A DNA stretch of 64,000 nucleotides from Psammoneis japonica (GCA_008632985.1 QPGO01000057.1:62001-126000), one strand, 5' to 3'; positions 545-60,552 are shown, counted from the first letter of the stretch. The notes: generated from the sequence alone by a model not told the origin. A program made the numbers and translations.

Positions 545-980
545 AAAGAAAAACACAAGTTTGCCGCCGGGGCAGACGGGCCAGTTTTGGTCATTGGTCA
601 CATGCGCTCTGACATGGCGTGCTTTTGGTGGCATGGAGCCCAAAGAAGTGAGAGCTGCTCAAACTCATTTCAAAAAATGAGAGCAGAGTGCTTGCAGCTG
701 TTGTGTGTGCTGCCATCATGATGACACAACTCACCAGCAGATTTGCTTGACCCATTCAACCACTGACTGCACACTCAAAAATCAACAACAACAAAATCAA
801 CAACAACAAGTGGTGGTGACCATGTCATTGAGCACCTTGACAGAAAACCTCCCTGACCCCACCACAACCACCAAAGTGGAACATGTCAACTGGACAAATG
901 CTGCTGTTGCACCATTTTGGCTGAGCAGCCTCTGGGAGTGTTCTTGTGTGTAACATCATTGTTTTGTGATGTGGTCATGA
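545..980 (+). repeat. Diverged direct repeat, copy A
   Basis: Exact 35-mer gcagatttgcttgacccattcaaccactgactgca at 737-771 and 5328-5362, plus colinear flanking matches (cattttggctgagcag, gcttttggtggcatg). Confidence 0.85.
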
Positions 981-3900
981 CAAATTGTCAACCATGTTGT
1001 TTGGCACTCACTGGTGTGTTGATCTTCATTTTAGCAACAGCAGCCATGATGAATCTGAAGACAATGGGCTGTGGAGATCTGAAAAAATGGTGGCACTCAC
1101 TCAGCCTGTCCTTCCATCAGATGATGTGTCAAAAATCCCAAAACGCAATGGCGCTGTTGTGACACACACCATTCATCAGACAGACATGTCCCTTGTGATG
1201 GACAATGGCAGTGCAGGGCTTGTTGACTGTCACAGTGAGTGTGATGCCCACTTGTGTGGTTGTCAGAACTGAGCTGAGGGCAAAGGTTAGCACAGCTTTG
1301 ATCCTTTGCCCAGTTGCTTGAAGCAGAGGCAAAAACAGCTTGACCATGGAGCTGTTCTCTGCACTGCATGATGTTGAAAAGGATGGAAATGACACCACTG
1401 CATTGTTGTTGTCATGCAACAACTTGTGCAGGCTTTGCTCCACTTGTGATGCTTGTGCTGAGCGGCAGCTTGTGAGCCACACTGTGACATTTCAGGGAAC
1501 TTGCTGTTGGGCATGCTTGGAGCAGATTCATGTGATTCAAGTCTGAAACAAAAACAACAACAACAATGACAACAACCAAAACCACAGCAACAACAATGAC
1601 ACAACAAGCAGCTCTTTGCAAGTTGCCATGGCATGCTTTTCTCTGGTGTGCTCTTGTGCTGCAATGAAATTTGCTGCTTTTTTGTGTTCATGTTGGGGTC
1701 ATGTGTCTTTTGCTCAGCATGGCATTCACATGACACAAGTTGCTGGTGCCCTTGGATTGCTCCATCTTGCCACCCCATGTGGAGCAGCAGATTTGTTTGA
1801 ATCATGGAAGTTGTGATGCTTTTTCAACATCATCTTTTTGCAGGGGGCACAGTGCTCAACTGGCTGGACATTGGCAAGGATTTTGCCCATGTTTTGGAAA
1901 GAGATCATTTCACACCCTGTCAATGCTTCCATGTTCTGGTCCAGGCATGTGCATGATGAGCAGAGCAGCACCATTCTTGGAGGCCACAAGTCCATGAATG
2001 AGCAGAAATCAAAAGCAGGATCCATGTCCTTGGTTGGTTTCCAATCCTTGCTCACTCATGCAGCAAGAAGAACCACCAAAGGCAGGTCCTGTTGTGGTTG
2101 TTTTTGTTCCTGCTGTGGCAGCCTTGCCTGTGCTTGTGCTTGTGCTCCCCTTCCATGACAATTGCCAAATTTGACAAAGGCCTCCTGAAATTGCTTGGGT
2201 GATGCCTTGTCATTTTGTGCAATGCAGAGTGAGCAGCTTGGTCCAGGCATCAAGCAGGGTGTGTTTGACTGCTCTTCTCCTTGCTGAACACTTTTTTACT
2301 TCCTGTTGCAACCCAAAAGCAGTGCCCCACAAATTTTGGAGCGCAGTGCTTGAGCTGCTGTCACAATTTTCATTTTCACCTTTGCAAATCTGATTCTGCA
2401 TCTTTTGATGCTTGTTGCAGTGAGACACTTCTGTTGACATTGATTCTGGTTGAGCAAGCAAGGTCATTTGGTGCTCTTGTTGTGCCAATGCTTCTTTCTC
2501 TGTTGTTGGTTGCTTGTCATTGTTGCAAGAGGAACTTGCAGCGGCGGTGTTGTTGTGGATCTTGTCCAAATCTGTGCTTGCATGAGGTGTTTTTTTTTGT
2601 TGATCTTTGTTGGGTGAAATGGTTGAAGGATGCACCAGTTCTTTCCATTCTTGTCATGTTCAATGTTGTCCAATGCAGAATTGCACAATGCACTCAGTGA
2701 GTTTGCCATTGGCTGAACAGAGCATCTGCCCCACACAAGTGCCAGGCACCACAAATGCAATTCCATGCATTTTGAGTGAGGTGTGTTGCACATGTCAAGT
2801 GAGAAGATTTCCAAATGGGCACTAAACTCAACCACAAAACTGTGAGCCTCTGGCATTGAGATTGCACCTTGCTGTTGCTGTTGGAGCATGTTGCGAGCAT
2901 TTTTTGGTCATCTTCTTCCATGTTGCTGGTGTGAACAGCAGAAGCTGCTGTCACACACCATGCTGGCAAATTTTTGATGAAGTTTTCTGGCTTGCAGACC
3001 TGGTGGCTGGCAGAAATGCTGGTTTGCCAATGGCCCTGATGGAGAGTTTTTGAGAAAGATCATTGACGGCAGATCATCCAGCCCCCCCCCCCCCCCCCCC
3101 NCACACACACACCAACACTTCACTCCATGTCCAGAGGTGGTTCTGGAAAGGGTGCTTCTTTGCTGGTGGGATGCTTCATTGCCATGGTTTTTGCACACAG
3201 TGTGTGTGTTGCTCCCTTTGTGGTTCTGGGCTCAATTTGGAGGCACTTGATCTCACTGACATGCACACCCACAAGATTGGCTGCCACATTGCAAGTGCTG
3301 CATAAAAAAAAATGTTGTTGGCATGCCAACAATGTCCACAACCTTGGGCAAGACAAAAACAAGACAAAATTGAGTTGCCAAAGCAATGATGGAGTCTCAA
3401 TTTTCCAGGACTGGTGGGTGTGGTTGATTGTCCATTGTCATGATGTGAGAGTGGATTTTCAATGCTGTGTTGTTGTCCTGTTGCTGGAGGACAACAAAGA
3501 TCATCTGTTCCTTCACAAACAATCATGTGAGACACACTTGCACTCATGTGCTTTCTGACTGCATGCCGCAGCTTTGACATTTCCAAAGGAGGAAAAAACA
3601 TGTTGCAGAAATGTGAAACAAAATGAATTTTTTTAGAAGGAGCACACAACAATCTGTTGAGTGAAGGTTGTTGCAGCACAATTTTTGCATTTCTCCACTT
3701 CACAGAGAAGTCCATTGTGCAACAACAACATGGTCAGCATTTTTTTAAATCTTCAAGAGTCTTGCTCAATCATGTCGGCATGGAGATTGACCATGGTGGT
3801 GGCTTGTTGTTCCAGCACCACATTCTTGACTTTGGTCTTGCAGACAAGGATGGTCAGAGACAAGACTGTGTCCTGCTTGATTGGCTTGATGAGCCCTCAA

Positions 3901-5087
3901 CAACCGTGCATGACTGGTTTCTTGCAACAGGAAAAGCATCCTCCTCAATTTCCTCACAAACTTTCTCATTTTGTGATTCTTCATCTTTTTCATCAAAACC
4001 TCCCCCCCAACACTCACTTCTCCACACCAATCATTTGTCCCCAGTGGTCTCAACAGCATTGTTGGTGAGGAGCCAACTGACAATGACCTCTGTGGCCTCA
4101 ACCCAGATGCTGTCACATGACTTCAGCAACATGACCCTCAACCTCACATTTGTTGGCAGTGCACTCATCAACACACAGAAGGAAGTGTGCTCATCTGGTG
4201 CCAGCTGTGACATGGTGACCAGTGACTGGGTCAAGGACAAGGCATTCCTGCCTGGCTCAATGGTTGACTGGCTCCAAGGCATTGACATGTGCAATTGCTG
4301 GGAGCTGTCATGTGAAGGTGTGTGGGATGACCACGTTGCCGATCTGGCACCCTGGAAGTTGGAATCACTCATCTGCGCCACATGACACAGCTTGTGTTTG
4401 ACATTGCACCAAACACCACAAGTGTGTCTGGCTTTGGTGACATCACCAGTGAGTGTGTTGCAGCAGAGGACGATGCAAGGGAACAGCAGCTTTCGTGCAA
4501 AAGAAAAGAAAATTGTGCAGCATGTGAGCAACCGAGTGGCAGAGCAGCAGCTGTCAATTGTGGTGAGAGAACATTTTTGAGTGCAGGACATGTTGGGTGT
4601 GATGTGCAGTGCTGCATGGAGCAAGGAGGCAAGCCAGTGCAATGATCAGCAAGAACACATGACAGCACAACTTCACATTGAAGCCGGCAGCGCTTTTGAA
4701 AACACATTGATGCAGACATGCTGGCAGTTGAATGTGATCTCTTGTCTCACTCTGCATTTTTGCACCAGAGGTGACCAAGAGCAAAAATGGTGGCAAACAC
4801 ACTGTGTGGTGCAAAGAACAGATTGAGAAACATGCTGTCCAGTCAAAGCTTTGTGCCAGTTAAGAGCCATGCTCTTGCTTGTTTCAGCACTCACTTTCTG
4901 GTCTGACTTGGCACTTGCTTTCCTCTTTGCTTTGATGCTTCAAATGGCAAACAATTTCATGCATGGCCAAATTTAATCCCAAGACACATTTGTTTGGCCA
5001 CCCCAGCTCCAGTTGAACAACTTCCAAGCCTGGTGCACATGTCTGCGAGGGGCGGGGCACAACTGGTGCAGCGCACTGGTGCGAGAT

Positions 5088-5595
5088 GAAAAAAACCAAA
5101 GCTGGCTGGGACAGAGGGGCCAGTTTTTGTCATTGGTCATGCATGCTCTGGCATGACATGACAGTGCAGTTGGCCACACCCTGCAGGAAAAGCTTTTGGT
5201 GGCATGCAGCCCAAAGAACTGAGAGCTGCTGAAGATCTCACATTTCAAAGTGGGCCCGAGACAGCAGCCACAGAGAGAGCTTGCAGCAGTTGTTGCCGTG
5301 TCAACATCATGACAACATGACTCACTGGCAGATTTGCTTGACCCATTCAACCACTGACTGCATGCTCAAAAAGCAACAACAACAAGTGGTGACCATGTCA
5401 CCAAACACTTCACAGTGGTCAACTTCCTTGTTGTCCCACACCTTTGGACTTGCAGCGGCCGCTGCCAGCCAAAATTTTTAAATGGAACATCCATGTCGAC
5501 TGCACAAACACTCCTGTGCCAGACATTTTGGCTGAGCAGTCTCTGGGAGAGTCTTCTCGGATGGAGGAGCGATGTTTCGTGATGCGGTCATCATG
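5088..5595 (+). repeat. Diverged direct repeat, copy B
   Basis: Colinear with 545-980, with indels and CA<->TG swaps. Confidence 0.85.
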
Positions 5596-5713
5596 AAGAA
5601 ACATCATTGGTGTTGTCGTGTTGAGATAATTAAAAATCCGAAAGTCAAAATCGTCTTGCCTTCACCCCTTTCTCCTTCGACTACAATCGGCACCGCGTAC
5701 CGTAGGCCTACTT

Positions 5714-18499: not shown

Positions 18500-21400
18500 T
18501 TTCTAAACAGCATCATTCGGCAACAAAATGAATCAGGATTGACTGACATTGTGATGAAATGCCAATGTGAGAAAAGGAAAACAGAGGGAAAGAGTTGCAC
18601 TGCATCTTTCTGGAGCAGCTGACATTGTCGCGTTCTCTCCTCTTAGAAAAAGCGCGCTTCTTTGGGGGCCGTTCAACCCTCTGCACAAAAATCGCATGCC
18701 TCCAAGATTTTGAGGCAAACACACGCATTGCCATGTCTTGAGATGAAAGTGTGGATGCCACAAATTTTGCAGCTTTGAGCATGGCTGTGGCTTCTTCTGT
18801 CTCACTTTGTTGGCTCTCCTCAAGTGGGTGGGAGAGAAGCTGTGTGTTGTTTTGCATTTCTCCTCTCATCTGGAGCAAGTGGCACACACACCTGTTTGCA
18901 TTTTTTGGCAAAAGGGATGATGAACAGAACAATTTGCTGCCCGGGGCTTTTGATTGTGTCAACAACAACGCAAAAAAAAAGGCACTCAAGCAAGATGCAA
19001 ACTGTTGCACACACAGACAATGAGCATGTGGTTCACCTGAGACTGGTTTGGATTTGGACAAGCCAGTCATGCTGACACATGCTTTGTCATTCTTCAGGGT
19101 GCATTGACACTCCAGCAATGGAGCCCATGGGAGCTTGGGTGTGCTGTGAAAGCCCAGCGCACATGCACAATGTCAGATCTCACAAGCTCTTCTGGCAAGG
19201 CTGTCAATGACTCAAATTCAAAGTCTGCAAAGGATCAGTCAGTTGCTCCAACACTGAAAAAAGTGCTGGGAAAGCAACCCAGGGCAGTTTGTGCTCCTCA
19301 TTTCAATCTACAGGAGGTGTGTGCCAAAATCTCAACAAGACAAGAGAAGCCCCCTGTTGCACTGTTTCTTTTTTAAAATGCCCAAGAGAGTTGACTCATC
19401 AGAGTGTCCATCTGCCAGCAGCTGCAGAACTGCCACAGCAGAAACCACATTGAAACAATTGTGCAAAGAGCCAGAGGTGCACAGCAAACTGCTGGCAAAT
19501 GATGTGTGGCTGCAACTCAACTGCTGGAGGCACTGGTGGCTTGTTGCTTTCTCCTTCTTGAAACTTGGATGGTCAAAGAACAGTGCTTCACTGTGATGCA
19601 GAGTTGTGCTTGTCACAGCCTTTGCAGCCAGAGCCAAAATGACAAAAAGTGCTTTTGTGGCTTTTCTGCAGCATCTGGCAACTGTTTTGCCCATGCATTT
19701 TGGTGCCAGGTGTTGTCGCTGTCCTTGCACAAAACCCAGAGAGATGTGACAGTTGCGCACAAAGTGCTGCAAGAGACAACTCACTTGCACAGGTGCCACT
19801 TGCTTGTGCCAAGAGACTTCAAATGCTGCAACAAGCACTGCTGCATGCTTTGGAGAGAATTCTGCAGTGTCAGCATCAAGCTTCCTTTTTTCTTGGGCTG
19901 AAAGCTGAGAATGTGCAGCAAGCCTTGATGCGGAAAACTCAGAACAAAACATCATTGACCCCAGATGTCCAGCAAAACAACCACAAGGCTCCAACAAATT
20001 TGCTTGCTCATTGACACACACCAAGAGCTCCAGTCAATGCTTGCACCATTGTTTCTCACAAGCAGTGGTGGTGGTGGCAGGAGCTTGACTTTTGCCAGTG
20101 AGAAGTTTTGCTTTGTCAGAGAGCAGAGCTGCTCACAAAACAAAGAGTCACAGCTCCAGCTGTCCAGCCACGCTGCAGATTCTTGGCAGCTCTTCCAGTC
20201 ATGGCAGCACACAGACATTGCTGAGACAAAAAGACAACAAAATCTTTGCACCCTCAGATGTTCATTCCAGAGATGCACATCTTGGCAAGTTGGCTGGCAA
20301 TGGGTTCTGAGCCTGTCATCAAAGGATTTTTCATCTTGCAACTCTGCAAAAGTGGAGCACCATTTTGTTCTCAGTTGGGTTCTTGAGAGTGGTTGATTTG
20401 CCAGCAGTCTGCCTTGAAATGTGAGGTGGCAATGGCAGCATCTCACAAGTGGTGCTCTTGCAAACAAATGTCAATTTGGCCAGTGTGCAACAAACTGCAG
20501 CACCCAAGAGGACAGCTTTTGAAGCCATGGCTGTTGTTCCACAAACTGTTGTTGAGAAGACAAAGCAACACTTTTCCCTTGGAGACAGCAGCAACAATGA
20601 GGAGCTCAAAGTTGCTTGCATGACAGATCCTCTCAAAGTGATCAAGGACAACTCTGCAATTGCTGGGTTGATTTTCTCAATTTCTGGATTCTGTTGAGCA
20701 CTGGATGATCATCTGTTTTAGCTGTTTTGTAGACTGCCCAGCTCTGGACAGCAATGCCTGGGTTTCTGCACAATCCTTTGGCTCTTGCCAGCCAGCCTTT
20801 GACCTTGAGCACTGCCTCCAAAACAGCTGGCAGCACTTGTCCAAAATTGTGCAATGCAGCCATGCTGGCTTGCACTGCCACTCCTTCTGCAAACTTCCCA
20901 GTTTTGGCTTTGCTTGGTTGTCTTGTGGGTTTGAGTGGATTGTTGCTTCTTTGGGCATGTTGTCAGTGCTGGCTGCAGCTTTCCATTTGTGTTGCATCCA
21001 AGGGAGCAGACTTGTCTTTGTTTGAGTTTGCCATCAAAGGCAGACTCCATGGGCTGATCTTCAACTGGCAGTCAAACCCCAGAGGCAAGAGTGCACCCAG
21101 GCAATGAAAAAGCTCTCTCAGTTTTCTTTGCCAAAGCACGGAGGCTTCCATGTGACCACAAATCTCTGAAACCCACGACGCAATGCTGTGCAATGAGAAA
21201 AAGGAAACAGGTCATCAAACTGACTCAACAAAATGACAGATGGAAAACAATTTGCTGTTGCTCGCTGCTTCACCTTTGAGACAGTCTCCAACTTTGCACT
21301 GAAAGCAAGTGCTCCCTCCAGAGACAACAGAGATGAGTGCCACCCCAGTGAGCACAAATCAACAGGGTGTGGTGCAGTGAGGGTGTGCAAAGGAACAAGG

Positions 21401-21600
21401 GGAAATCTTTTGTCAGTGCACAACAACCTGCAATGTCTGAGAGGACAACTTGAAGCCACTGTCGTCATTCCAGCCACTGGCAAGTGGTGCTTGAGAAATC
21501 TGAGCAACAATGCCACCCTTGGAAGACAGTGAAAATAACAAGAGGAGTCCGAACTTGCATGGTGGACCATATCTGGGTGAGCAGAGTCTAGGGTCTTGGA
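18500..21600. other. TpA/CpG-depleted hypermutated block 2
   Basis: Near absence of TA and CG, strong CA/TG excess, nearly Tyr-free overlapping ORFs; no recognisable product. Confidence 0.85.
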
Positions 21601-34847: not shown

Positions 34848-35079
34848 CGTTTTGTCACGTCATGGTTGCCAAGTGTCAAGATGAAACACCACACAGTTTG
34901 TCTTGAGGCAGATGACCGAATAGGAGCTCGTAGCTCGTACGTCATCGAGGTTCGTGCCCGCAGTTGCCCGCAGAAGAAAAACATCGTTTTCATTGACAGC
35001 CATGTGTGGTTGCTTGGCTCAGCACCATCCGGTGAGTCGATCGTCTCGTTCTCATTGATAACCAGATCTGCTAGAGTTA

Positions 35080-38000: not shown

Positions 38001-39560
38001 AAAAGAAGTGGGAAAAAGATCAAGAGAGGAGCAGGACTTGTTTTGCAAGAAGAATGGCAAGACACCAATGCCACCATGCTTGCTTTTGAAACAATTAGAG
38101 TGCAAGCATCTCACAGCCATCAGCACAAAATTGTTTGGTTTTACTTCCATGAAGTTGCATCTTGTGCGGGGAGCTGCAACTTGGCCAGCACACAAGACTT
38201 GGAGCACAAAAAGTTGTTTCCAAATGAGTCTTGATTTTTTGTTTGAGTCCCTTCATTTGAAAGAAGGAAACATGACATGACCATGCTGTCATTGACAACA
38301 ACAGACAAAACTGTGCTGAGAGCATCAACTGGATCCCACAAGGAACGGAGCACAGAGTTGCAGCAAGCTGATGATTTCTCACAAGCTCTTGCTCCAGCCA
38401 AGAACCATCCATGCCAAACTGCCACAGCAGCCCATCTTGTCACTGCAGTGCTGGCTCAACCATTGCATTTTGGTGATGATGAGAGTGACAAGAGCATGAG
38501 TGCCACCTTTGCATCCATCTCATGCTCACTCCTGTCTCAGCTTCAAGCTCCTGATGAGAGCAAAAAAAGCAGCACAAAGACTGCTCATCAAGGGGGGCTT
38601 TTTGTTGCATCACCACAAAGCTCTGTGGCAAACTCCAAAAATGTGCACCTCCCATGCAGAGGTGCAAGGAAATGTGGGATGAGTTGGTGTGACAGAATGC
38701 CATTGCTCGTGCATGGCAAACCATGCTGGAGCTCCAGGTGGGAGCTTGAAATCTGCAGTTTCTGTTCCTGGTGTGTTGGCTTTGTCATCTCTGACTTCCT
38801 TGCACACTCCATCCTGCAGTCATCTGACAGCATGTCCTTTTTGCATTGGCCAAAATGGAGCAGATCCATCACCATTGCTTGTTGATCTGATCTCAACAAG
38901 CCATTTTGCATTTTCCAGCAGCCAGCAGTGTGTGTGAAAGGGGCAAAACAGCACTCAAACAACCTGTTTGTCATTTTTGGGCAAGCTTTTGGCAGATGAC
39001 AAAGCTGCTCTGGGCGGCGGCTCTCCAGAACCATCCCCAAACCAAAATGTGGTCAAAGGTGGGGTCAATTTTCAGCTGTGCTGAGTTTCATCTGCGTCTC
39101 AAAGCATTGGCCGCAAAAGAGAAAACTGCAGTCCAGCACTTGTGTGAACATGGGCTTGTTCAGATTTTTCTAAAATGATGCTCCACACTGCAACCCACAC
39201 AGTTGTGTTTGTGTCATCTGAAACAAAAAAGGCTCAAAGTGGGCTTTTCTCTGTTGACAGAGCAAAAACACTTTCTCCATCGATCATCCTTGACTTTGGT
39301 GTGAGCCACCACCAGCACATGATCAGAGCATGTGTGTGCTGAGAGAGAGCAAAGAGTCAGCTCTCGTCCCATCACCACCCATGCTGCTGAATTCTTGGAA
39401 AAGAGAGCAAGGCATTTGTCAGCATGTCATTGCTGTTGCTGTCAATGAATCCAGCAGTGGCAAAGCAGCAGCTTTGATGGCAAACTCCAGAACACAGGCA
39501 GCATCTGGCTGCATTTCGTGCATGCAAAAAAGATGATCACATGGGTTGTTGCCTGAAGAT
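35080..39560. other. TpA/CpG-depleted hypermutated block 4 (between divergent PEX1 and Z-ISO)
   Basis: Same dinucleotide signature; surviving TA mostly in TTA/TAA context. Confidence 0.9.
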
Positions 39561-39863
39561 CCAATCGCGGATCGCGGGCCAGAGGGATGCTGGAGGCAGT
39601 GAAAATAAACCGTTTTCAATGTGGAATTTTGACCACGAGGTGCTTTTTGTACTTGTCTACTGTGCGCCCGTTGTCTTACACGGCAACACGGCCGCGCGGC
39701 GGCGGGGCGGCGGGGGCCGACTACACCCCGGGAAGACAGAGGTTATGAGCGAAAAGATAGCAAATTTTATGAAAACTATTCAGAAGCGGATGTTTCATTC
39801 ACACTGACGTTTTGCGGGTGTTTCGCATCATCTTTTCTTTTTCACCCATTCAAACGATCCACC

Positions 39864-43756: not shown

Positions 43757-46698
<2,942 letters not shown>

Positions 46699-48427: not shown

Positions 48428-48821
48428 CTTTTTTCCTTTTCACAACGCGGTTCGCTCGCTCTCTAAAGACTTCCAGAAGATTTTAATTTACAGGACGTGC
48501 ATCATCCCCTAAAAGCTGCAGTATTCTCCTGAAAGATTAAGAGTCGACTTGGAAGAAGTGAGATGTGGAGACAAAACGCCGCCGCCATTTCGCATCGCTC
48601 TCACTGTTTCTACCTTCACTCTTCGCACCGCATCCCAAAATGCTTATGGGAGCTCGGAGCTCGACTCACACTTCTTCTGTCTGTCTGTCTGTCTGTGCCT
48701 CGTGCGATTTCTGGCATCTGCGGAATCTCCAAAAATCTGCGATGACCATGATGACACAAAACTGAAAACACTAACAACCGCAACAGGCTTTAAGAACGCA
48801 TTCGATACATACAACACAACA

Positions 48822-50649: not shown

Positions 50650-50763
50650 ATTGATCTACTAATTACGTAGGGAGTTTCCAAACGCGAATATTGTTGTTCT
50701 TGTTTCTTCAAAACTGATGTGCCTTCACTCATCGACTCCCGTACTACTTCTTATCGATAAACT

Positions 50764-51923: not shown

Positions 51924-53519
51924 TCTTCTAGCTAGTAGAAGGCGTCCAGGTGCCGGTGATGTGATGCGATGTTTCTTGATGACGACGCTTCTGTTGCGGT
52001 GATGCCATCCTGGCGATAGTCTCTAATTGATAGATAGATTCGTGGGCAAAAACGGTCTGAAATCTGTCCTTTTGAGAACGTAACAACAAAGAGTGAAGTG
52101 CATGTGGGGCGGGCACCATGATGCTGCTCTTCGGATGCCACATTATCTCAAAATCAGCATTTTGCACAGCAGCATGGTGTGCCCACAGAGGATGTCAGCA
52201 AGAAGAAGAGGGGTGACAGTGCCACAAAAGATGGTTTGCCAGGTGTTGGTCATGCACACTTCTGGTTTTTCTTGCTGTTCGAGGCTCGGTCAGAGTCAAA
52301 AGATTTGGGTGCAGACACGGGTGGTGGCTTGGAGCTCTGTGTTTTTGCACTGTCTTTGGGCAAGTCTGCCTGCAAAAGGAAGAAGCCAAGCAGCACCATT
52401 GGCTTTGCAGCAGCAAAAGAAGCCTCAAACAAAGGCAAAGGGGGGCTTCAGAAGTGGAGAGCTCTTGTGTGACCATGGAGTCAAGGGTGCCTGTGTCTTA
52501 GAGGCCCGCCACAAGGCACAAGGCAGGTTGGTGAGCTGACATGTTGGCTGGTGGCACTGACATCCATCATGGTGTGTGTGTGTGGTGTGGGGGGGGGGGG
52601 GGGGGGGCATGTCAGCCAAGCTCATCTTCTTCAAATTAAATGGTGTGCTCAGCGCTGCTGTCATCTCTCCAGTGAGGGGACATTTTTGTTGGTGCTGAAG
52701 GGCCAGTGGCTGGGGCCATGGTCCACTGCTGTGGTTGGTTCTCAGTGCATTTGCACTTGGTGTGGTGCACACAGTCAAGCCATGTGGTGTTGTTGAGCAA
52801 GAAAAAAAATGAGAACAGGCCAAACTGAAAAAGGAGTGGACAGCATCTGATGATGTGAGAAAGGTTGCAAGACCCTGCCAGGGCCCCAAGTGGTGCAAAA
52901 GGCAAGCTCAGTGATGCAGCGCGGCATTCTCCTCCTCAGGCACAGCTGCCAGCTGCCCTGGCTCAGGCCCACAGAACAAAAAAACTCTCCTGTCAAAACC
53001 CCGGGGCAAAAGACCACCCCCACTCAACAATCTTCCAGCTCACGGCTTTGCTCAGACACAAGCTGGACAACAGCTTCACAGGTTTTTCTTGTTGGTTCTT
53101 TTCATCCATTGCTGTTGTTCGTTCATGCCCCAGCAGCTGGCCATTGGAGTCCTCCCAAAATGAGACCCGACACAAATTAAGACCGAGAGGCCATCAAGCT
53201 CACTTCAAGTCTGCAAGGTCCAAGCTCCGAACAACTGTTGTCATGACCCAAGTGTGGCGATGAAGCATCACAGCAGACTCCAGATGCTTGTTTTGTGCCA
53301 ACTGCAACTTCTGGCAGCTGCTGGCACTGACAGACTGCTGTTGAGGTGCATTCATGCATGAAATGGAATGAACTGTTTCACACCACTGCCACTGGACCAC
53401 ACTGTGTCACACCCCCATCAGACTGATCTTCACTGCAAAGGAGCATCGGATGATGCCCCCTTGTGGGCTCGGTTCTTGCTCACACTCGGCAGGATCTTCC
53501 ACTTGGGTTGTGGCATCAG

Positions 53520-56500
53520 ATCAGTTGCCAGTGCCATCTGATTGAATCGTCACACTGCAACACTTCTGCACAAAAACATCCTTCTTGTGCTTGCTTTCTT
53601 TGAGAAATGCTTTGTGGTCAACAAACAGAATGGCACAAAGGTCTTTTTTGGTGACCCACTTGTCAATTGTGCCATTCTTTGCCACAATCTTTCTTGAAGC
53701 CTCTGGGTGCAAAATTTGGTGTTCCTCTTCTTCTGCACTCGTCTTTCTTTCTGACGCAGCTTTGTCAGTGCGCCTTTTCTCTGCAACAGAAGATGCCAGC
53801 TGGAGATGGTTCTTGAGTCTGTCCAACACTTTCTTGTTGTTTTCAAAGCAACAGTGCGCCAAAATGTCACCAAGGAAGTTGAGCTTTTGCTCTGGAAGCT
53901 TCTGAGTGGCGCAACTTGCGCCAGCAAGCTCCACAATGTTTCCACCACAAACATCAATGGAGCTGGGTGCCAGAAGCTCTTGCTGAGTGCTGGTGATTTC
54001 CACGTCAAGAGCCGTGCTGTGCAAAAGTGGCTCATTGCTCTTTGTGACAACAATTTGGGATCTCTGCAAACAAATTGGGTCACATGAGCAAATGCTTTTT
54101 TGTGCAAGCACCCACTGGCAACCCCTGCGTGTGTTTCTATGCGTGCTCTCGTGCTGATGTCGCCCTTTTCAGACGGCGTTTCGCTGAGTCCCCTGTCAAC
54201 CTTTTGGCCCCTTCTGCCATTGGCACACCCTTTCATCTCCATGATGTGCAACAATTTTCAGTGGAAAACGACTGGCATCGACACTTTGTGGCTCGCATGC
54301 TTGTTGTCTTCTTTGGCAATTTTTTGCGGATTCGGTGTGATTTCTACACAGAATCCAGTGCAAATTCTACGCGCTCAAGAAATGCACACCGACAGTCATC
54401 ACGTCTCCGATGCGATCAACTTCCATCCTTGCCTGAAAGCCCCCAACAATTTCTTTTGCTCCCACTGGCTGCTCAAGTTCTTCACCTCATGTGGTGAAAG
54501 TGCTGTCCCTGTTGTGGCGCCTGCGAGTGTTCGCATGGACAAACCATCGGCATCATCTGACGACCGTCCATTTGCTGCACAGATCGGCTTTTCCACGCAA
54601 GATTCAGCATCAATTCTACGTGAGAATGGACATTTCTTCCGACGACCTTCTCGTCACATCACCAAGACTTCCTGTTTCATCCTTGCAAGTCACGAACATC
54701 CCCTTTTCTGCTTGCTGGCCTGCCAAGATCACTGTTCCGAGCAGTGAACTGCACATTGTTGTTCTGGTTCATGCAATTGTGAAATTCAATCAGTCTTTGT
54801 TGAAGACAAGATTCTCCCTCAGAGGCAAAGATTTTCTCTCAGAATGTGCGCTGACTTTGAATTCTCTGCTTGACTTGATTGTCCTTTGCTGTGGCAGTTT
54901 GGGTGCCTTGCATCCTCTCTGAAAGAAAGCAATATCTCATTCTGGTGCAATTTTTCCTTGACCTTTTATCACTGGTGCGCGTCGCTGCAAAGCGGCGTGT
55001 TGGCCGACTGATCGCACGACATTCTGCCGCACTCTCCTCGCAGGGTGCACTGGAAGTGTGGGTTGGCCGGCGCCGGTGTTGCTGGGCAAAGGTGCAACAG
55101 CACTTAAAATTAGGTTTTGGTTTTTTTTTGGGTCACATGAGCAAATGGAGCCTTTCCATGCAAGCCTGGTGGCTTCAACTGACAGTGGTGGAGACCATCT
55201 GTGACACGGCTGGCTGACTCCCGGCCAGCTTCAATCTTAACATTTGCTTGCAAGGGCTGCTCCTTGTCACTCTTGTTCAGTGCCTCCTGGTCAAGGTGAT
55301 CCAGGTTCTCTTTTGCAAGCTTGCAGCAGACTCGCAAGTTCTGGTGGTCCTGAGGGGGATCTTGAATGTCTCCACCAGAAGGTTTTTGATGCACTCAAGG
55401 GTGAACCTGCCATGGTCATCAATGATTGAACCACAGCCTTCTTGGTGACTGGAGGAATCCCATGCCACCAAGACAGAAGAAGCTGGTGCTTGTTGGCAAC
55501 AGTTTCAGGCTTGAAGGCCTGTCCTGCTTTGAGGAAGAGATTGATCTTTTTGCACCACTTTGGAAAGGAGACCCCAGTCTCCTTGGATCAAGATTCACTT
55601 TTTGGAAGGAAGATTCCCAAGTCTCCTTGCTGGTGCCACAGAGACAACAGAGGCCTGCTGACACAAGGCCCCACTGATCGTTGATGTGCTTGGAGCACTT
55701 GATCCTCTGGCCATGCCCACGAAACATGGACATTCCTTCTTGAGAGAGGGTGTTGTTGCTGTTGGCAACAAACGAATTGAGCCCTTGATTTACATGGGAC
55801 ATGTCCCCTTCCTCTTTCAAGCTCTTGATCTTGTTGCTGTGTTGACACTGCACTGCACACAGCATTTTACAGTGCACGCCAAATCCATTGAACATTTCTA
55901 GAAACCACCACTGTGGATCATCACAAACCACAGGAAGACTTCTGTGTCCTTTGACAAGAATGTTTGGGTCAATTGCATCCCGTGCTTGCTCAGTTGTGAA
56001 AGCATTCAGGATCACCGCAATCATCAACCCTTCCTTTGCTCTGTGCCTTGCAAGAAAACTGTCAGCAAATCTGACCCCCTTCATTGCTCACCAGCCAAGC
56101 ACCACGTGGTTGGGCCTTTGTCACCACCGCTGGATTCCCATGTGAACCATCGTGGCCATGGCATGTTGGTTGCTTTGCATCTTTTTGTGTTTTTTCCCTT
56201 GGCACCAACAATTTTGGCATTGCCGCCAAAAGCCACAATGCACATTTCATCCAATCTGCCAACAAAATGATGCACAACTTGCCAAACGTCTTCGCTGTGG
56301 CTCGGCAAAGGACAGCAAGCAAAAAAATGATGAACAATGGTCAAACAAAAAACAGTCCAGCATGCAAGTGACAAACAATGACATTCTCACCTGTTGCTTG
56401 GCAAAGGCCAGCATTCAAGTGACGCAGCTCCACAAAAGCCGAGTCGACCAACACGTGCCAACGGTGTTGCTGCTCCACCGTGATTGCCGTCCGTTTTGCA

Positions 56501-56900
56501 GTTGTGGCCTGAGCTTTCATGGCGTCATTCTTTGGTGTTGAAGTGTTGTTTTTCAAAACAGTGTGATGAAGCATTTGCAATGCTTGCTTGCACTCTAGAT
56601 CAGGGCTCAAATCCTGCACCAAATCAATGGTTTCTGGTGGTGTCCTGCCATCATTCCTGTGATCACATCTTGCCAGAGTCTAGCCAATGAGCTCTTGTTT
56701 GTCCTTTTCTGACAAAGGCTTGTGACCAACACCCACACCAATTTCTCAATGCTTTTCCTCATCTTCTTTTGTGCAAGATTTCAGCTGGTTGCAGCTCATG
56801 TTGACAACTCACGCAAACTCTCGTAACCTGCAAGCCTCTCCATTTGAGCCACAATGTCGGCCGGATTTGTTGAGCCACTCTGACACAGCCTTCTTCATTT
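53520..56900 (-). mobile_element. Degenerate pogo/Tc5-like (DDE_1) DNA transposase, interrupted by a ~1-kb segment
   Basis: Fragments LDEMCIVA..KIVG, GDKGPT, NAFTTEQ, FLEMFNGFGVH and KEEGDMSHVNQ resemble the N.DET, DG..SH and SH..Q..D motifs of DDE_1 transposases; many stops and frameshifts; no TIRs identified. Confidence 0.55.
54075..55147. repeat. ~1.03-kb segment flanked by a perfect 20-bp direct repeat
   Basis: ttgggtcacatgagcaaatg at 54075-54094 and 55128-55147. Confidence 0.75.
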
Positions 56901-59900
56901 TAGACAGATTCAGCTCCACTGACCAATTCACTTGATGTGTCCAAATGTGAGCACAGCACCGCCGCACACACCCCGCTGGCACCTCTTTTTTGAAGATGGA
57001 GCGATCATGTCACCAACAATTTTTGCCATGTTGAAAGCATGTTTTCTCTCACTGGGTGGGGGTGGCAGCAGCACCACCTGCATGGGCTGTCTGCACTCCA
57101 ACAGAACAAGGGAAGAGCACTGCTGCTCACTTCTTGCTCCATGGAAATCACAGCTTGCCACCCATGTGATCTCTCAAGATTGATGCCACCAAAACATGAA
57201 AGATTTTGCAAAGGACTTTGCAGCATGCTTGAAATGCTCTGCAGCAGAGCAGCATCTGTCGGTGCTCCTCTGTGATGCACTCAAAGCTGCCAAAACTAAC
57301 ACCGCCACTGACAATGCTGAGGGAGGAAAATTGGCGAAGGCAGCTGTGACGGAGACCCACTGTGACTTGTCTTGCATGGCAGTTTTCATGAAAACCTGGG
57401 AACTCAATTGCCTGAAAACCTTCAGGAAGGAGCCTGTGCCAGCTCTCATTGTTGATGAGTTCCATCATGATGCAGAGACAAGAACATGGAATGTTTTCAA
57501 ACATTGCTGAGAGATGCAGCATTGAGAGGAGCAGTTGTTTTTCTCATGATGAAAGAATGGGCTTCCAAATTGACAAAATTGAGCACGAAGACCAAACCCC
57601 TTCTCCTCACAATGTGGCAATGAGGGGTGCAATGGATCCAAATGTTTTGAAGGAACACCCCAGTGGAGTTGCTTGTGCTGGAAGGTCCAACAGTTGCAAA
57701 AAATGGTCCAGCCTTCATGTGAGAAAAATGGCATCAAGCCAAAGGATGTCATTCCAGACAACTCTGGGCTTGCCCCTGGCGAGGCCGTCAAAGTCATCCT
57801 GGAAATGTCTTGGGCTGAACAGCCAGGAGCAGGTCCATGAGCATTGTTGACTGGTTTTGAATGCTTGTCAGCTGAAACAATTGGTGGTCTCAAGGTGGCA
57901 CCACACAGTTTTTTAGATTGTGCACAGTCTCCATCTTTAAAATTGAACAGCCACACATGTCAGAGAAAAGATCTTGTGCATTCTCATTTCACCCACTCAC
58001 TGTGACTGGCAGCACACATTTTGGAGGTCTTCTTTCCTCTTTGTGTCCCACGATGATCAAGTGATGACATTGGTCAGTGAGACACTCTCTCATCTAAATC
58101 AAAGCTGGAGTGAGGGCAAGCTGCGCTCCTTGAGTGCGCACATTTCTGCACTGATGTGTCAGAGTGCAGCAGCAACTTCTTCCAAGGGCTCTGAATTGAC
58201 TTGCACTGATTGACAGCTGAGCCTGCAACACGAACAAATCACCTGACTCTGGATTGGCTGGCATCAGCAGCTGACCATCTGGAAAGAAAGAACAAGATGG
58301 AATTTGGTGGGAAATTTCTTGAACAGGAAGGTGGCAATTGTGCCTCCACATGGGTTCACTTGGGGAAAATCAAATGTTTTTGTCATGTGACCAATGCAGT
58401 GCACATGTCAACATTGTCATGTGAAAACTGCACAAAATTGTCTGACCAGCATTCTTTTCAACAACTTCTCTCTGATGTCCTCAGGCCCAAGCAGCCAAAA
58501 TTCTTGGGAACTGGTGCTTGTGCTCCAGCTGCTTGTCAAGGTCTAACTTGACAAAAACTGGCCAAAGAGCTCCTCAATGACATGTTGGATGCTTTGGACA
58601 CTGTGGCAGATGATCCTGCTGGTTCTCAACTGGTGGCACAAAGGCCATCTGCACAATCTTGATGGGAATCAAGTGACAACTCAGCTTTCCTGGTGCTTCC
58701 TTGGCAAACATTGCATCAGCGAGAGCACTTGTGCTGCAAGTGTCCAGGGCCATCACAAACAAAACACAACAACCCTGAAAGGTCCTTGCAGTTCTTCACA
58801 TGGTTGTCTTAACCTCAATCTTTTTGCAAAATGTGCCCCCGTGATTTGCAACTTCATGGCAGTTGAGAGAAACCAGCATCATCAATCTTGCAATGCTTCC
58901 TCCAAGCTTCATTGCCAGAAACTCCAAGATGTGCAGGGCACTCCTTCTCAAGGTCCTTGACAGCAAAAGCATGAAGACAGTGAGCAGGTGCATGACCTTG
59001 CAATCAGATTTCCTGATGAGATGGCAGCAGAAGGTTCCTTCCCAAACAACTTGATGAGGTCTTGGACAGTCTTGGCAAAATGATCTTTGTCCAGGATGGC
59101 ACTTGGGCTGCTGGGCAAGTCATTTCACTGTTGAAGGCAAAGGGAGCACTCAATGGAATCCACAGCCTGGTGGCCATGCTGAGATGCATGGTGGCAGCTG
59201 CAGCTGAGTGTCAGTCTGCTTGTGCCAGTTGTTCAATTGAGAATCACCAAGATGAGCTTCATGGGAAAAGAGATGATGCTCCCCACCATGAGCAGGTGTT
59301 GGAAGAGGTGAAGACACATTGGACAAGCTTGCAGGCATGGAGCCACCTCAGCACACTGCTTGAGGGTTTCCATGCCCACTCCAGCAGCAGCATTGCACCA
59401 GAGTCAAGCATGGTTCTGGATGGAAGATTCGTTGAAGGGTGGGAGTGCAACACAGATGATTGCCAAAGGAGTGCAACACAAAGATCACCATTGGATGGGA
59501 TGTCATCTAAAGAAAACTGTTGGGTGGCAACAAACTCCATGCAAGTTGATGCCAGCACTTTCATTGGGATTAAAACCACTTGGGGGATGCAAAATTGACT
59601 CACACAGAATGTGATGGCAGAGACCTCTCTTGAGGTTGCACAGTGTGATTCAGAGGATGAAAAATGGGGCAAGGGGTGCTGCACTCACCAAGTCATTGCA
59701 CATTGTGTCCCTGCACAAAACAATTGTTGAGACCGCATCTCTTGGAAACATTCAAAGATGTTTTGTGAGACCAAAGGGAGCCGGTGGTTGTTGCTGCATG
59801 TCTCACACAAATTGTGCCTTTTTTGCTTGTGTCAGGGGTGAAAGCATTGCTCTGTGGCAGGCAATTGTGTCTCTTCCATTGGGGATGGATTTGCCTTTTG

Positions 59901-59938
59901 CACAACACAAACGTGGGCTTCTTCTGGTCATGACTCAG

Positions 59939-60552
59939 GGGTGGTGGGACATTTCATTTTGATTTGGGCCGCACTGGCAAGGGGGGCAGGGACAGATCTG
60001 CTGTTGCAAAAAAGGTGGGCTCTCTTGCACTGACAATGTCATGCCACACAATGAGTGTTGTTTGATCTTGTTCACACATGGTCATGACACACAGCTTCTC
60101 TGATCATGCACTGCAGCAAAACAGCTCTGAGATGGTCAAATTGTGGAGAAAGGAGTGGTGCGTGTGTTGCTGCAGCAGTCTCCAAGTTAGTTTCCATTGT
60201 GCTTTTGGTTTTTGCAGGATTGGCTTCATCAGGCTGTTCCATCAGGAGCACAACATCCTTGCATCCCCACTTTGCATCATTGGACATGTTTGCCCCTGCA
60301 ACAGTGTCAAAGTCAAACGACCTTGCCGGAATCATTCGTCATTCCCACTTTGCACCAACAATTTTCACGGTGGCAATGCCGACAAGCACATCACCAACTT
60401 TATAATTTTTCCCGTTTTCTCTGCGTTTCCACCTTCTGCCAGTTCCTGTGCTCATGCTCCTCTCCCCGCTTTGATCTCTTCAAACACAACACCAAGGAGC
60501 TTCTGCGTTTTCACCTTGTAAAAGGAAATGCGCTCACGAAATCCTGAAAACT
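59939..60552 (-). pseudogene. Hypermutated tandem partial duplicate of the PDZ gene and its 3' flank
   Basis: Colinear with 60553-61345 apart from two internal deletions; ORF remnant MIPARSFDFDTV.GA.MSNDAKWGC.DVVLLMEQPDEA matches the intact gene. Confidence 0.95.

What the first reader, a model, noticed from the sequence alone, without database searches (positions are those of the whole stretch)
545..60552. Candidate regional hypermutation system erasing both TpA and CpG (opposite TpA outcome to RIP)
Seen: five sharply bounded blocks (~22 kb) where TpA and CpG almost vanish and TpG/CpA dominate (0 TpA and 1 CpG in ~1290-2296), while adjacent genes and introns use both normally. Known: CpG->TpG loss is expected from 5mC on diatom repeats (DNMT5), and fungal RIP creates TpA rather than removing it. 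Inference: a second, coupled process converts TpA->TpG/CpA (A->G at TpA on either strand) in silenced DNA. Candidates are a TadA/ADAT-like DNA adenine deaminase, a modified base at TpA, or Pol-eta-like error-prone repair as in somatic hypermutation. The two changes roughly cancel in GC content, so GC or RIP scans would miss it. I know of no description of this but cannot search.
Basis: partly seen in the sequence, partly recalled or inferred. Interest (0 to 1): 0.95.

Follow-up and report, generated by a model that had tools for sequence, protein, structure and literature searches.

The report
TpA- and CpG-erased silent DNA in diatom
One third of this diatom genome window consists of dead, non-coding DNA in which almost every TA and CG step has been mutated to TG or CA, the footprint of a TA-targeted mutator so far measured only in one unrelated alga, acting here alongside ordinary methyl-CpG decay.

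Summary
Five blocks (about 21.9 kb of 64 kb) have TpA O/E 0.04 and CpG O/E 0.19. TpG/CpA is doubled, and base composition and total YpR content are unchanged.

The changes are derived mutations made on DNA:
- A host-gene fragment inside block E, compared with its intact tandem parent, shows 20 of 26 TA and 20 of 28 CG turned into TG/CA.
- The two LTR-like repeats of block A are 77% identical in bases but 97% in purine/pyrimidine code.
- Contigs from a separate public DNA run carry the same block sequence at single-copy depth, which argues against a base-calling artefact.

Gene homology places the organism among the diatoms.

TpA loss and CpG loss overlap but can be told apart. TpA loss is 2-5 times more complete, reaches 100-200 nt further at block edges, and follows a flank rule (TAY over TAR; TTAA resists) that CpG loss lacks.

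A 2026 preprint measured TpA-only A>G hypermutation in integrated viruses of the chlorarachniophyte Bigelowiella natans. Seven literature searches found no report for diatoms.

This is a new variant of a very recently described kind, and the enzyme is unknown.

The parts
505..5479 (.). Block A: TA-free zone with 10 TA and 32 CG in 4935 nt. It is an LTR-element-like unit spanning about 545-5597 with no recognisable protein domains.
   Evidence: composition; terminal direct repeats; no Pfam transposon domain in ORFs or in six-frame read-through.
545..984 (+). Left LTR-like direct repeat of block A.
   Evidence: matches 5085-5597 at 77% base identity (621-794 vs 5192-5385) but 97% in purine/pyrimidine code (694-795 vs 5286-5386). 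There are 9 TG/CA discordant doublets in 329 aligned columns.
5085..5597 (+). Right LTR-like direct repeat of block A. Its outer end (about 5480-5597) lies at the block edge and keeps CG and TA.
18644..21536 (.). Block B: 5 TA and 17 CG in 2893 nt.
24092..24977 (.). Block C: a short, G+C-richer block between two divergent genes, with 1 TA and 23 CG in 886 nt. TpA is erased and CpG only partly lost.
35078..39606 (.). Block D: 10 TA and 33 CG in 4529 nt.
52144..60552 (.). Block E: a composite block with 32 TA and 135 CG in 8409 nt. Its left end coincides with a repeat terminus near 52088.
   Evidence: the DNA run X1 covers it at depth 59-71 over most of its length, like the flanks (57-73). Nine contigs have a loose end at 52088.
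54096..55130 (.). Nested high-copy unit inside block E, bounded by a 20-nt direct repeat (54075-54094 and 55128-55147). It looks like a younger insert: TA retention is 0.21 and CG retention 0.79.
   Evidence: the depth bins 54006-55339, which contain this unit, read 2972-4856 against about 60 elsewhere.
59939..60552 (-). Hypermutated tandem copy of the 3' part of the neighbouring host gene (a pseudogene fragment) at the right end of block E.
60553..61264 (-). Intact parental copy with normal TA and CG. It overlaps ORF 60893-61456 (-), whose product looks PDZ-like by eye. It serves as the reference for the ancestral state.

Best explanation
The five blocks are dead, non-coding DNA of a diatom. 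They include an LTR-like element, a nested multi-copy repeat and a duplicated fragment of a host gene. After arriving in place they were rewritten at the DNA level by two context-specific transition processes that share the same sharply bounded territories.

Process 1 turns TpA into TpG or CpA (A>G on one strand or the other). It is the faster and more complete of the two. It prefers an A followed by a pyrimidine (5'-TAY-3'), so RTAR becomes RCAR, YTAY becomes YTGY, RTAY is lost fastest, and YTAR (above all TTAA) survives longest. It has the same TpA>TpG/CpA signature that mutation-accumulation lines showed directly in integrated viruses of Bigelowiella natans.

Process 2 is CpG>TpG/CpA. It is most simply explained as deamination of 5-methylcytosine, because diatoms methylate CG in transposons.

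Together the two processes remove both self-complementary YpR steps while leaving G+C content unchanged.

Shown here: the depletion, its direction, its action on both strands of DNA after insertion or duplication, its regional rather than sequence-specific limits, the flank rule, and the separability of the two losses.

Inferred: that process 1 is enzymatic adenine deamination by a TadA/ADAT-like enzyme acting on DNA (my odds about 0.45), that the territories are silenced methylated chromatin, and that the outcome serves as genome defence.
For: - Depletion and mass balance. YpR fraction is 0.241 in blocks and 0.239 outside. In the R-YR-R flank class, 9.4 TA and 12.6 CG per kb are lost, and 16.0 CA and 5.6 TG per kb are gained.
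- Direction. In the tandem pair, parental TA gave CA 11, TG 9, other 5, kept 1 (of 26). Parental CG gave CA 12, TG 8, other 1, kept 7 (of 28). Transitions to transversions were 67:14.
- Change after insertion, on both strands. The LTR pair is 77% identical in bases and 97% in RY code, with 9 TG/CA doublets in 329 columns, against 1 in 345 columns for control paralogs outside the blocks. TG and CA counts in the blocks are equal, 2480 and 2473.
- Limits are regional, not sequence-specific. The same LTR sequence keeps CG where it lies at a block edge and loses it where it lies inside. A host-gene fragment is converted while its adjacent parent is not.
- Flank rule. Of 54 residual TA, 36 are YTAR, against 278 of 1556 outside (Fisher p = 1.6e-14). 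No ATAC or GTAC remains, against 351 outside.
- Flank rule, outcome side: RTGR/YCAY to RCAR/YTGY is 1024:1598 in blocks and 1538:1782 outside (p = 2e-8). In the tandem pair, RTAR gave CA 4: TG 1 and YTAY gave TG 6: CA 1.
- The two losses are separable. The nested unit retains TA at 0.21 and CG at 0.79. In the tandem pair 1 of 26 TA and 7 of 28 CG are retained. At edges the CG decline lags by 100-200 nt. CG outcomes show no flank bias.
- Not an artefact. X1 contigs match the block (3537 nt with 17 mismatches and 14 gaps; 1457 nt with 6 mismatches and 3 gaps) at single-copy depth.
- Diatom origin: with 75-82% identity to diatom isocitrate dehydrogenases.
- Precedent: (abstract, Results and Discussion of bioRxiv 10.64898/2026.01.13.699255 read).
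- CG methylation of diatom transposons: (passages of PMC9998398).
- TadA-derived DNA editors can show a YA motif with YAY over YAR: (passages of PMC12528748).
Against: - No enzyme, methylation, chromatin or de novo mutation data exist for this organism. The mechanism rests on sequence footprints alone.
- Only two copy pairs give ancestral states, and the flank test within the tandem pair alone is weak (Fisher p = 0.07).
- A>G at TAY cannot be told from T>C at RTA on the other strand, so a thymine-side mechanism fits equally well.
- The blocks contain no recognisable transposon or viral protein domain. This was checked on 119 ORFs from all blocks, but six-frame read-through was done for block A only. 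'Foreign or selfish DNA' is therefore shown only by repeat structure and copy depth.
- The library type of X1 is not on record. It comes from the same sample as X2 and X3 and may be the source sample of the assembly.
- About 51 kb of three environmental eukaryote-like contigs showed no such blocks, so generality among diatoms is unknown.
- In B. natans no CpG effect was reported, and the depletion there is far milder.
Confidence: 0.8

Rival explanations
1. The regional TpA>TpG/CpA conversion is real, but the lesion is on thymine, not adenine. A modified thymine at R-T-A (for example oxidation to 5-hydroxymethyl- or 5-formyluracil by a TET/JBP-type dioxygenase, which would also see 5-methylcytosine) mispairs with G and gives T>C.
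For: T>C at RTA is the exact strand mirror of A>G at TAY, so all footprints fit equally well. Both erased steps begin with a 5-methylpyrimidine (T or 5mC) followed by a purine, which would tie the two losses to one chemistry. From recall, not from any call: 5-hydroxymethyluracil in dinoflagellate DNA favours TpA, and 5-formyluracil is mutagenic toward T>C.
Against: CpG and TpA losses differ in rate, edge position and flank rule, which does not favour a single chemistry. No such enzyme or base was examined here. The B. natans authors favour adenine deamination, also without proof.
Confidence: 0.15
2. A single bifunctional pathway (for example an ADAT2-like deaminase that acts on both A and C in DNA) makes both the TpA and the CpG changes, as the first reader's word 'coupled' implies.
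For: The two losses occupy the same five territories. The B. natans preprint cites ADAT2 enzymes said to act on both A and C in DNA.
Against: Retention differs: TA 0.21 against CG 0.79 in the nested unit, and 1 of 26 against 7 of 28 in the tandem pair. The CG decline lags by 100-200 nt at edges. The flank-driven strand choice is seen for TA but not for CG. In B. natans the hypermutation was almost wholly A:T>G:C, with 230 of the 231 changes in the two hypermutable regions of that type. Methyl-CpG decay alone explains the CG part.
Confidence: 0.1
3. Error-prone repair synthesis of the somatic-hypermutation type (a Pol-eta-like polymerase) in heterochromatin produces A>G at TA.
For: From recall: Pol eta makes A>G errors at WA motifs. 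The changes here are regional and strand-symmetric.
Against: A WA-motif process should also hit AA. AA is not depleted (O/E 1.25 in blocks, 1.16 outside), and 25 of 26 parental AA are unchanged in the tandem pair. The near-total specificity for T at -1 and the TAY rule point to direct base recognition.
Confidence: 0.04
4. The blocks are a sequencing or assembly artefact, in which modified bases at TA and CG are systematically miscalled.
For: The window looks like a long-read assembly: it has many small indels relative to the X1 contigs.
Against: X1 contigs, built from exact 31-letter words at depth about 60, carry the same TG/CA letters. Each site has one fixed outcome that follows a flank rule, and a strand-dependent miscall would not produce that. 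Two in-window copy pairs differ site by site.
Confidence: 0.02
5. The elements were born without TA and CG, because of selection against these steps (for instance to avoid a nuclease or an RNA sensor) rather than mutation in place. A variant of this idea is A-to-I editing of retroelement RNA before integration.
For: The nested high-copy unit is already TA-poor while CG-rich, so its family consensus could itself be TA-poor.
Against: A host-gene fragment shows the same change relative to its parent. The two LTR-like repeats, taken to have been identical at insertion as LTRs are, now differ by TG/CA doublets. Both strands are hit equally, which single-strand RNA editing would not give. The same sequence is converted or spared according to its position in the block.
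Confidence: 0.03

Closest known systems
TpA-targeted hypermutation of integrated viral DNA in Bigelowiella natans (Mettrop et al., bioRxiv 10.64898/2026.01.13.699255, 2026; abstract, Results and Discussion read)
   Same: The mutated step is TpA only, and the products are TpG and CpA according to strand. The process is confined to particular regions of non-host or silent DNA. A long-term footprint of TpA depletion with CpA+TpG gain is seen in clusters of 1-kb windows. An ADAT2/TadA-like DNA adenine deaminase is proposed but unproven.
   Different: - That organism is a chlorarachniophyte (Rhizaria); this one is a diatom.
- There, depletion is mild: the giant-virus (NCLDV) insert still has TpA Rho 0.45 and 3.3% TpA, and clusters were called at Rho 0.43 or less. 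Here depletion is near-saturated (O/E 0.04) over a third of the window.
- There the targets are giant-virus and virophage inserts. Here they are an LTR-like element, a nested repeat and a host-gene fragment.
- The preprint's text contains no 'CpG', 'diatom', 'context' or 'flanking'. CpG co-erasure and the TAY-over-TAR rule are seen only here.
- De novo rates were measured there and could not be measured here.
Repeat-induced point mutation (RIP) of ascomycete fungi
   Same: It permanently inactivates selfish DNA by dense context-specific transitions on both strands, giving sharply bounded, compositionally odd blocks.
   Different: RIP turns CpA into TpA, which creates TpA and raises A+T. Here TpA is destroyed and G+C is unchanged. 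RIP mutates both copies of a duplication, whereas here one tandem copy is converted and the adjacent one is intact. Most of block E is single-copy.
Methyl-CpG decay of methylated transposons (CG methylation of diatom transposons maintained by DNMT5; PMC9998398, passages read)
   Same: CpG>TpG/CpA loss is confined to repeat territories. Retention is higher in G+C-rich flanks (GCGC 0.66 against TCGA 0.05).
   Different: It explains only the CpG half. Methylation itself was not measured here.
TadA/ADAT tRNA adenosine deaminases and TadA-derived DNA adenine base editors (PMC12528748, passages read)
   Same: A>G by deamination. Engineered TadA variants acting on DNA show a YA motif with YAY over YAR, and ABE3.1 prefers YAC, which resembles TAY over TAR here. 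From recall: the natural substrate is A34 after the universal U33 of tRNA.
   Different: No natural eukaryotic enzyme is known to do this on chromosomal DNA in defined domains. Here -1 must be T: CA accumulates as the product and is not attacked. No candidate gene was examined.

Membership tests
TpA-targeted A:T>G:C hypermutation (B. natans type) | Changes fall on TpA and yield TpG or CpA. | tested here: met
   of 26 parental TA, 20 became TG or CA and 1 was kept, while parental AA was kept at 25 of 26; mass balance of YpR steps holds.
TpA-targeted A:T>G:C hypermutation (B. natans type) | Both DNA strands are hit, so the process acts on DNA and not on one RNA strand. | tested here: met
   TG 2480 and CA 2473 in blocks; the LTR pair diverged after insertion; no strand-coordinated runs of outcomes.
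TpA-targeted A:T>G:C hypermutation (B. natans type) | Confined to particular regions of foreign, transcriptionally silent DNA. | tested here: inconclusive
   Regional confinement is shown. Repeat nature is shown for parts of the blocks. No viral or transposon domains were found, and one converted piece is of host origin. Transcription, methylation and chromatin state were not measured.
TpA-targeted A:T>G:C hypermutation (B. natans type) | A directly measured, strongly raised de novo mutation rate, active only in some lines. | not testable with these tools
   This needs mutation-accumulation lines or population resequencing of this diatom.
Fungal RIP | C>T mainly at CpA, creating TpA and raising A+T. 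| tested here: not met
   TpA O/E is 0.04, CpA is enriched at 1.84, and G+C is unchanged.
Fungal RIP | Triggered by duplication, with both copies mutated. | tested here: not met
   only the in-block tandem copy is converted; most of block E is at single-copy depth.
Methyl-CpG decay | CpG>TpG/CpA in the affected region. | tested here: met
   of 28 parental CG, 20 became TG or CA. CG O/E is 0.19.
Methyl-CpG decay | The region carries 5-methylcytosine. | not testable with these tools
   No bisulfite or modification-aware data were available. There is only the published general finding for other diatoms.
ADAR-type editing of retroelement RNA | A>G on the transcribed strand only, acquired before integration. 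| tested here: not met
   outcomes are strand-symmetric and the LTRs diverged after insertion; a host-gene tandem fragment that was not retrotransposed is also converted.
Pol-eta / somatic-hypermutation WA signature | A>G at WA, so AA is hit as well as TA. | tested here: not met
   AA is not depleted (O/E 1.25) and was kept at 25 of 26 parental sites.

The most novel reading that the evidence does not exclude
Diatoms, and with B. natans perhaps much of the SAR supergroup, possess a DNA adenine-deaminase genome-defence system. A TadA/ADAT-derived enzyme is directed to silenced chromatin and deaminates A in 5'-TAY-3' on either strand until TpA is extinct. Working beside methyl-CpG decay, it deletes both self-complementary YpR steps, removes TAA and TAG stops and Tyr codons, and scrambles any invader without shifting G+C. 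It would be a functional counterpart of fungal RIP with the opposite TpA outcome, and it would escape GC-based and RIP-index scans.
Probability: 0.35. Interest if true: 0.92.

Novelty: new variant of a known kind. Interest (0 to 1): 0.8.

Why it matters
If the footprint means what it appears to mean, a natural, domain-targeted A>G mutator of chromosomal DNA operates in diatoms, one of the most important groups of marine primary producers. It would not be limited to the single chlorarachniophyte where it was measured this year.

That would do four things:
- Extend a barely described form of genome defence across two distant SAR lineages.
- Supply a sequence rule (TAY over TAR, with TTAA resistant) that any candidate enzyme must reproduce.
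- Show that the process acts by territory rather than by sequence origin, because a host-gene fragment is also rewritten.
- Point to a natural DNA adenine deaminase, which would interest base-editing research.

There are practical consequences too. Such regions keep normal G+C content and lack TAA and TAG stops, so spurious long ORFs appear in all frames. They can therefore mislead gene finders, repeat annotators and RIP or GC scans in diatom genomes.

Tried and rejected
- Whole genome: none is held for this window, so no genome-wide scan or repeat-family consensus was possible.
- Protein domains in the blocks. All 119 stop-to-stop ORFs of 90 aa or more from the five blocks, plus six-frame read-through of block A with X at stops, gave no transposon or viral Pfam domain. 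There were only sub-threshold chance hits (Synaptobrevin, INV_N, SP_C-Propep and FH1, each below its Pfam cut-off). A first attempt with all 30 frames was too large to print, and blocks B-E were not repeated in six frames.
- Homology among blocks. Ordinary blastn found only the LTR pair and the tandem pair. Purine/pyrimidine-recoded blast added one short 63-nt match within block B, 20479-20541 vs 21412-21472, not followed up, and no convincing match between different blocks.
- Strand-coordinated clusters of outcomes, as in APOBEC-type kataegis. Runs tests of TG against CA gave z from -1.3 to +0.7 in blocks, similar to outside. No such clusters were seen.
- RNA. No RNA holder is listed for the stretch. 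Run X2, labelled 'DNA?', behaves like RNA: it has 8 joints of 84-126 nt with GT..AG or CT..AC ends in the flanking genes. It has depth 0-1.4 over 52005-60675.
- Other copies or other organisms. A degenerate 36-nt pattern from the nested unit found 0 matches in metagenome contigs. Sixteen loci found through the isocitrate dehydrogenase were scanned. The three long eukaryote-like ones (L002, L014, L015; about 51 kb) have no 1-kb window with TA O/E below 0.43. The sample is too small to say anything about other diatoms.
- In-block differences between the window and X1. Of 499 differences only 40 were listed, and 10 of those lie in block E. Three are CG<>TG/CA and none involves TA, as expected once TA is exhausted. 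This is not informative on ongoing activity.
- Literature. Searches found no description of TpA or TpA+CpG erasure in diatoms. The library omits most subscription journals. The supplements of the bioRxiv preprint are closed and might hold flank or CpG data.
- Earlier notes of this scan: nothing for this genome or sequence.

Full report
**Observation**

Sliding 500-nt windows show five stretches where TpA and CpG collapse together and TpG/CpA doubles. Pooled over 21,852 nt of blocks there are 63 TA (O/E 0.04) and 248 CG (O/E 0.19), with TG O/E 1.80 and CA 1.84. In the remaining 42,148 nt the values are 0.54, 0.98, 1.15 and 1.19. Base composition is the same in both compartments.

The TA-free runs define five blocks:

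| Block | Limits |
|---|---|
| A | 505/545-5479 |
| B | 18644-21536 |
| C | 24092-24977 |
| D | 35078-39606 |
| E | 52144-60519/60552 |

- The longest TA-free run is 1345 nt (P about 1.6e-22 at the outside TA density). The longest TA-free gap wholly outside the blocks is 190 nt.
- Edges are sharp. Pooled over ten edges, TA per 100 nt runs 3.2, 2.3 | 1.0, 0.2, 0, and CG runs 4.9, 4.7 | 2.9, 1.7, 1.2.
- Tandem Repeats Finder reports only two short arrays inside the blocks, both in block A (778-809 and 1547-1607).

**Is it real DNA?**

No whole genome is held. One public run, X1, holds 0.78 of the sampled words of 52000-61500.

Laid on 44001-64000, X1's contigs cover block E at a word depth of 59-71 over most of its length, the same as the flanking genes (57-73). 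They match the window closely: one 3537-nt contig over 55101-58623 has 17 mismatches and 14 gaps, and one 1457-nt contig over 58880-60333 has 6 mismatches and 3 gaps.

The library type of X1 is not on record, and it may come from the sample that was assembled. Kilobase contigs at 31-letter word depth of about 60 imply accurate reads. The many small indels relative to the window suggest the window came from a different, long-read chemistry. Both points are my inference.

A modification-driven miscall would also not give one fixed, flank-dependent outcome per site, which is what is seen (see the anatomy section below). I put the artefact reading at about 2%.

**What organism, and what lies around the blocks?**

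The ORFs between the blocks encode ordinary eukaryotic proteins:
- a protein kinase
- an amino-acid transporter
- a PEX1-like AAA ATPase
- an NnrU-family protein
- a phosphoglucomutase
- a monomeric isocitrate dehydrogenase

The dehydrogenase fragment is 75-82% identical to proteins named from Minutocellus, Chaetoceros, Thalassiosira, Cyclotella, Leptocylindrus and other diatoms.

Run X2 carries eight joints of 84-126 nt with GT..AG or CT..AC ends in the flanking genes, so those genes have short introns.

**What are the blocks?**

They contain no recognisable protein domain. None of 119 ORFs of 90 aa or more gave a transposon or viral family, and neither did six-frame read-through of block A. 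Because TAA and TAG are absent, long spurious ORFs occur in every frame.

Structure nevertheless identifies parts of the blocks:
- **Block A** is bounded by LTR-like direct repeats at about 545-984 and 5085-5597.
- **The left end of block E** coincides with a repeat terminus. Nine X1 contigs have a loose end at 52088 whose consensus resembles the window sequence just after that point.
- **A nested unit at 54096-55130 inside block E** is bounded by a 20-nt direct repeat (54075-54094 and 55128-55147). The depth bins covering it read about 3000-4900 against 60 elsewhere.
- **The right end of block E (59939-60552)** is a tandem copy of the adjacent 60553-61264. That adjacent stretch overlaps ORF 60893-61456 on the minus strand, the C-terminal part of a host protein that looks PDZ-like by eye.

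**The changes are derived and directional**

The tandem pair gives the ancestral state directly.

| Parental step | n | CA | TG | Other | Kept |
|---|---|---|---|---|---|
| TA | 26 | 11 | 9 | 5 | 1 |
| CG | 28 | 12 | 8 | 1 | 7 |

Parental TG was kept at 32 of 37 sites, CA at 40 of 46 and AA at 25 of 26. Transitions outnumber transversions 67 to 14.

Recoding the window into purines and pyrimidines, which transitions cannot change, raises identity as follows:

| Pair | Base identity | RY-code identity |
|---|---|---|
| Tandem pair, first segment | 89% | 98.1% |
| Tandem pair, second segment | 77% | 92% |
| LTR pair | 77% | 97% |

The two LTR-like repeats, which I take to have been identical at insertion as LTRs are, now show 9 TG/CA discordant doublets in 329 aligned columns. 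They also have 9 sites where one copy keeps CG. A control pair of paralogs outside the blocks shows 1 doublet in 345 columns.

If each ancestral site resolved independently, this implies about 27 ancestral TA+CG sites (8%). That is close to the 9.3% density in normal DNA of the window.

Mass balance agrees. Total YpR is 0.241 of steps inside the blocks and 0.239 outside. The blocks are what normal DNA of this genome would become if every TA and CG were turned into TG or CA.

**The process acts on DNA, on both strands, and by territory**

- TG and CA counts are equal in the blocks (2480 and 2473).
- The LTRs diverged after integration, and a host-gene fragment that was never retrotransposed is also converted. 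Editing of an RNA intermediate is therefore excluded.
- The same LTR sequence keeps its CGs where it lies at a block edge (545-620 and 5480-5597) and has lost them where the other copy lies inside the block.
- The converted tandem copy abuts an unconverted parent.
- Most of block E is single-copy today.

The trigger is therefore position in a domain. It is not sequence origin and not duplication as in RIP.

**Anatomy of the TpA process**

Residual TAs are not random. Of 54 residual TA, 36 are YTAR, against 278 of 1556 outside (Fisher p = 1.6e-14). Density relative to outside is 0.42 for TTAA and 0.29 for CTAA/TTAG. None of ATAC or GTAC remains, against 351 outside.

The flanks also decide the outcome. 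In the R-YR-R class, 9.4 TA and 12.6 CG per kb are lost, while 16.0 CA but only 5.6 TG per kb are gained. RTGR/YCAY to RCAR/YTGY is 1024:1598 in blocks and 1538:1782 outside (p = 2e-8).

In the tandem pair, RTAR gave CA 4: TG 1 and YTAY gave TG 6: CA 1 (Fisher p = 0.07 on its own). CG sites show no such bias.

Read as adenine changes, the preferred target is 5'-T-A-Y-3'. Read on the other strand, it is T>C at 5'-R-T-A-3'. The two readings cannot be separated from sequence alone.

Outcomes at neighbouring sites are independent: runs tests gave z from -1.3 to +0.7.

**CpG loss is a separate, slower process**

- In the nested unit, which looks younger, TA retention is 0.21 and CG retention 0.79.
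- In the tandem pair 1 of 26 TA and 7 of 28 CG are retained.
- Taking minus the log of retention, TpA conversion is about 2.4 to 6.6 times faster than CpG decay.
- In the better-conserved half of the tandem pair there are 32 differences in 309 positions, and by my count about two thirds of them lie at parental TA or CG sites. My estimate is that the TpA rate exceeds the background substitution rate by roughly two orders of magnitude.
- CpG depletion begins 100-200 nt further inside the blocks than TpA depletion.
- CpG retention is highest in G+C-rich flanks: GCGC 0.66 against TCGA 0.05.
- Diatoms methylate CG in transposons, with DNMT5 maintaining the mark in Phaeodactylum (passages of PMC9998398). 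Deamination of 5-methylcytosine is thus the economical explanation, although methylation was not measured here.

**Comparison with what is known**

Seven full-text searches found no diatom report. They did find one close precedent: bioRxiv 10.64898/2026.01.13.699255 (abstract, Results and Discussion read).

In mutation-accumulation lines of Bigelowiella natans the preprint reports:
- 231 of 302 nuclear single-nucleotide mutations fell in two integrated viral regions.
- 230 of those 231 were A>G or T>C, and all of these lay on TpA.
- The rate was about 6e-7 per site per generation, and the process was active only in some lines.
- The genome holds 124 clusters of TpA-depleted, CpA+TpG-enriched 1-kb windows.
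- An ADAT2-like deaminase is proposed.

The preprint's main text does not contain the words 'CpG', 'diatom', 'context' or 'flanking'.

The present window shows the same signature in a different SAR lineage. The differences are:
- it is at saturation
- it covers a third of the window
- it affects transposon-like and host-derived DNA
- it is joined by CpG decay
- it follows a flank rule

It is not RIP. TpA is destroyed rather than created, G+C is unchanged, and only one of two tandem copies is hit. It is not a Pol-eta WA signature, because AA is untouched.

The TAY-over-TAR order resembles the YAY-over-YAR and YAC preferences of TadA-derived DNA editors (passages of PMC12528748). From recall, it also resembles the U33-A34 context of the natural tRNA substrate. 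This is a lead and not a test.

**Verdict**

'Coupled' should read 'co-located but separable', and 'undescribed' should read 'described in 2026 in one chlorarachniophyte, not in diatoms'.

| Claim | My confidence |
|---|---|
| Real, post-insertion, territory-bound TpA>TpG/CpA plus CpG>TpG/CpA conversion | about 0.8 |
| Lesion is enzymatic adenine deamination | about 0.45 |
| Lesion is on the thymine side | about 0.15 |

Generality in diatoms is untested. About 51 kb of environmental eukaryote-like contigs showed nothing, which is uninformative.

Noticed in passing
window 54075-54094 and 55128-55147: A 20-nt exact direct repeat (TTGGGTCACATGAGCAAATG) brackets a 1035-nt unit. The depth bins of run X1 that contain the unit (54006-55339) read about 50-80 times the single-copy level. 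It looks like a young non-autonomous element or solo LTR nested in block E. No protein domain was found in its ORFs of 90 aa or more.
   Followed up: partly
window 52088: Nine X1 contigs leave the window sequence here with a related but different continuation. This suggests the terminus of a low-copy repeat (depth 99-181 over 52005-54005) that forms the left end of block E.
   Followed up: partly
window 55101-58623 vs 45788-50096: The window differs from the X1 contigs about nine times more inside block E (17 mismatches and 14 gaps in 3537 nt) than in the neighbouring genes (4 mismatches and 1 gap in 4310 nt). The cause could be higher allelic divergence or more assembly indel errors in the block.
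   Followed up: no
window 13313-13658 and 25392-25737: Two paralogous coding segments 71.5% identical, both outside the blocks and with normal TA and CG. They were used as the control pair.
   Followed up: partly
window 31979-34659 (-): Two adjacent minus-strand ORFs encode a PEX-1N domain and an AAA ATPase domain. Together they look like a peroxin-1 gene ending next to block D.
   Followed up: no
window 61883-62725 (+) and 62988-64000 (+): A Lys/Glu/Asp-rich low-complexity ORF is followed by ORFs with ABC-ATPase-like motifs (assessed by eye only). TRF reports 15- and 22-nt imperfect repeats at 62531-62747 within the charged region.
   Followed up: no
window 3101: A single N lies inside block A.
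   Followed up: no
all blocks: Because TAA and TAG are absent, stop-to-stop ORFs of 90-250 aa occur in all six frames of the blocks: 119 ORFs of 90 aa or more in about 22 kb. A gene finder could call false genes here.
   Followed up: yes
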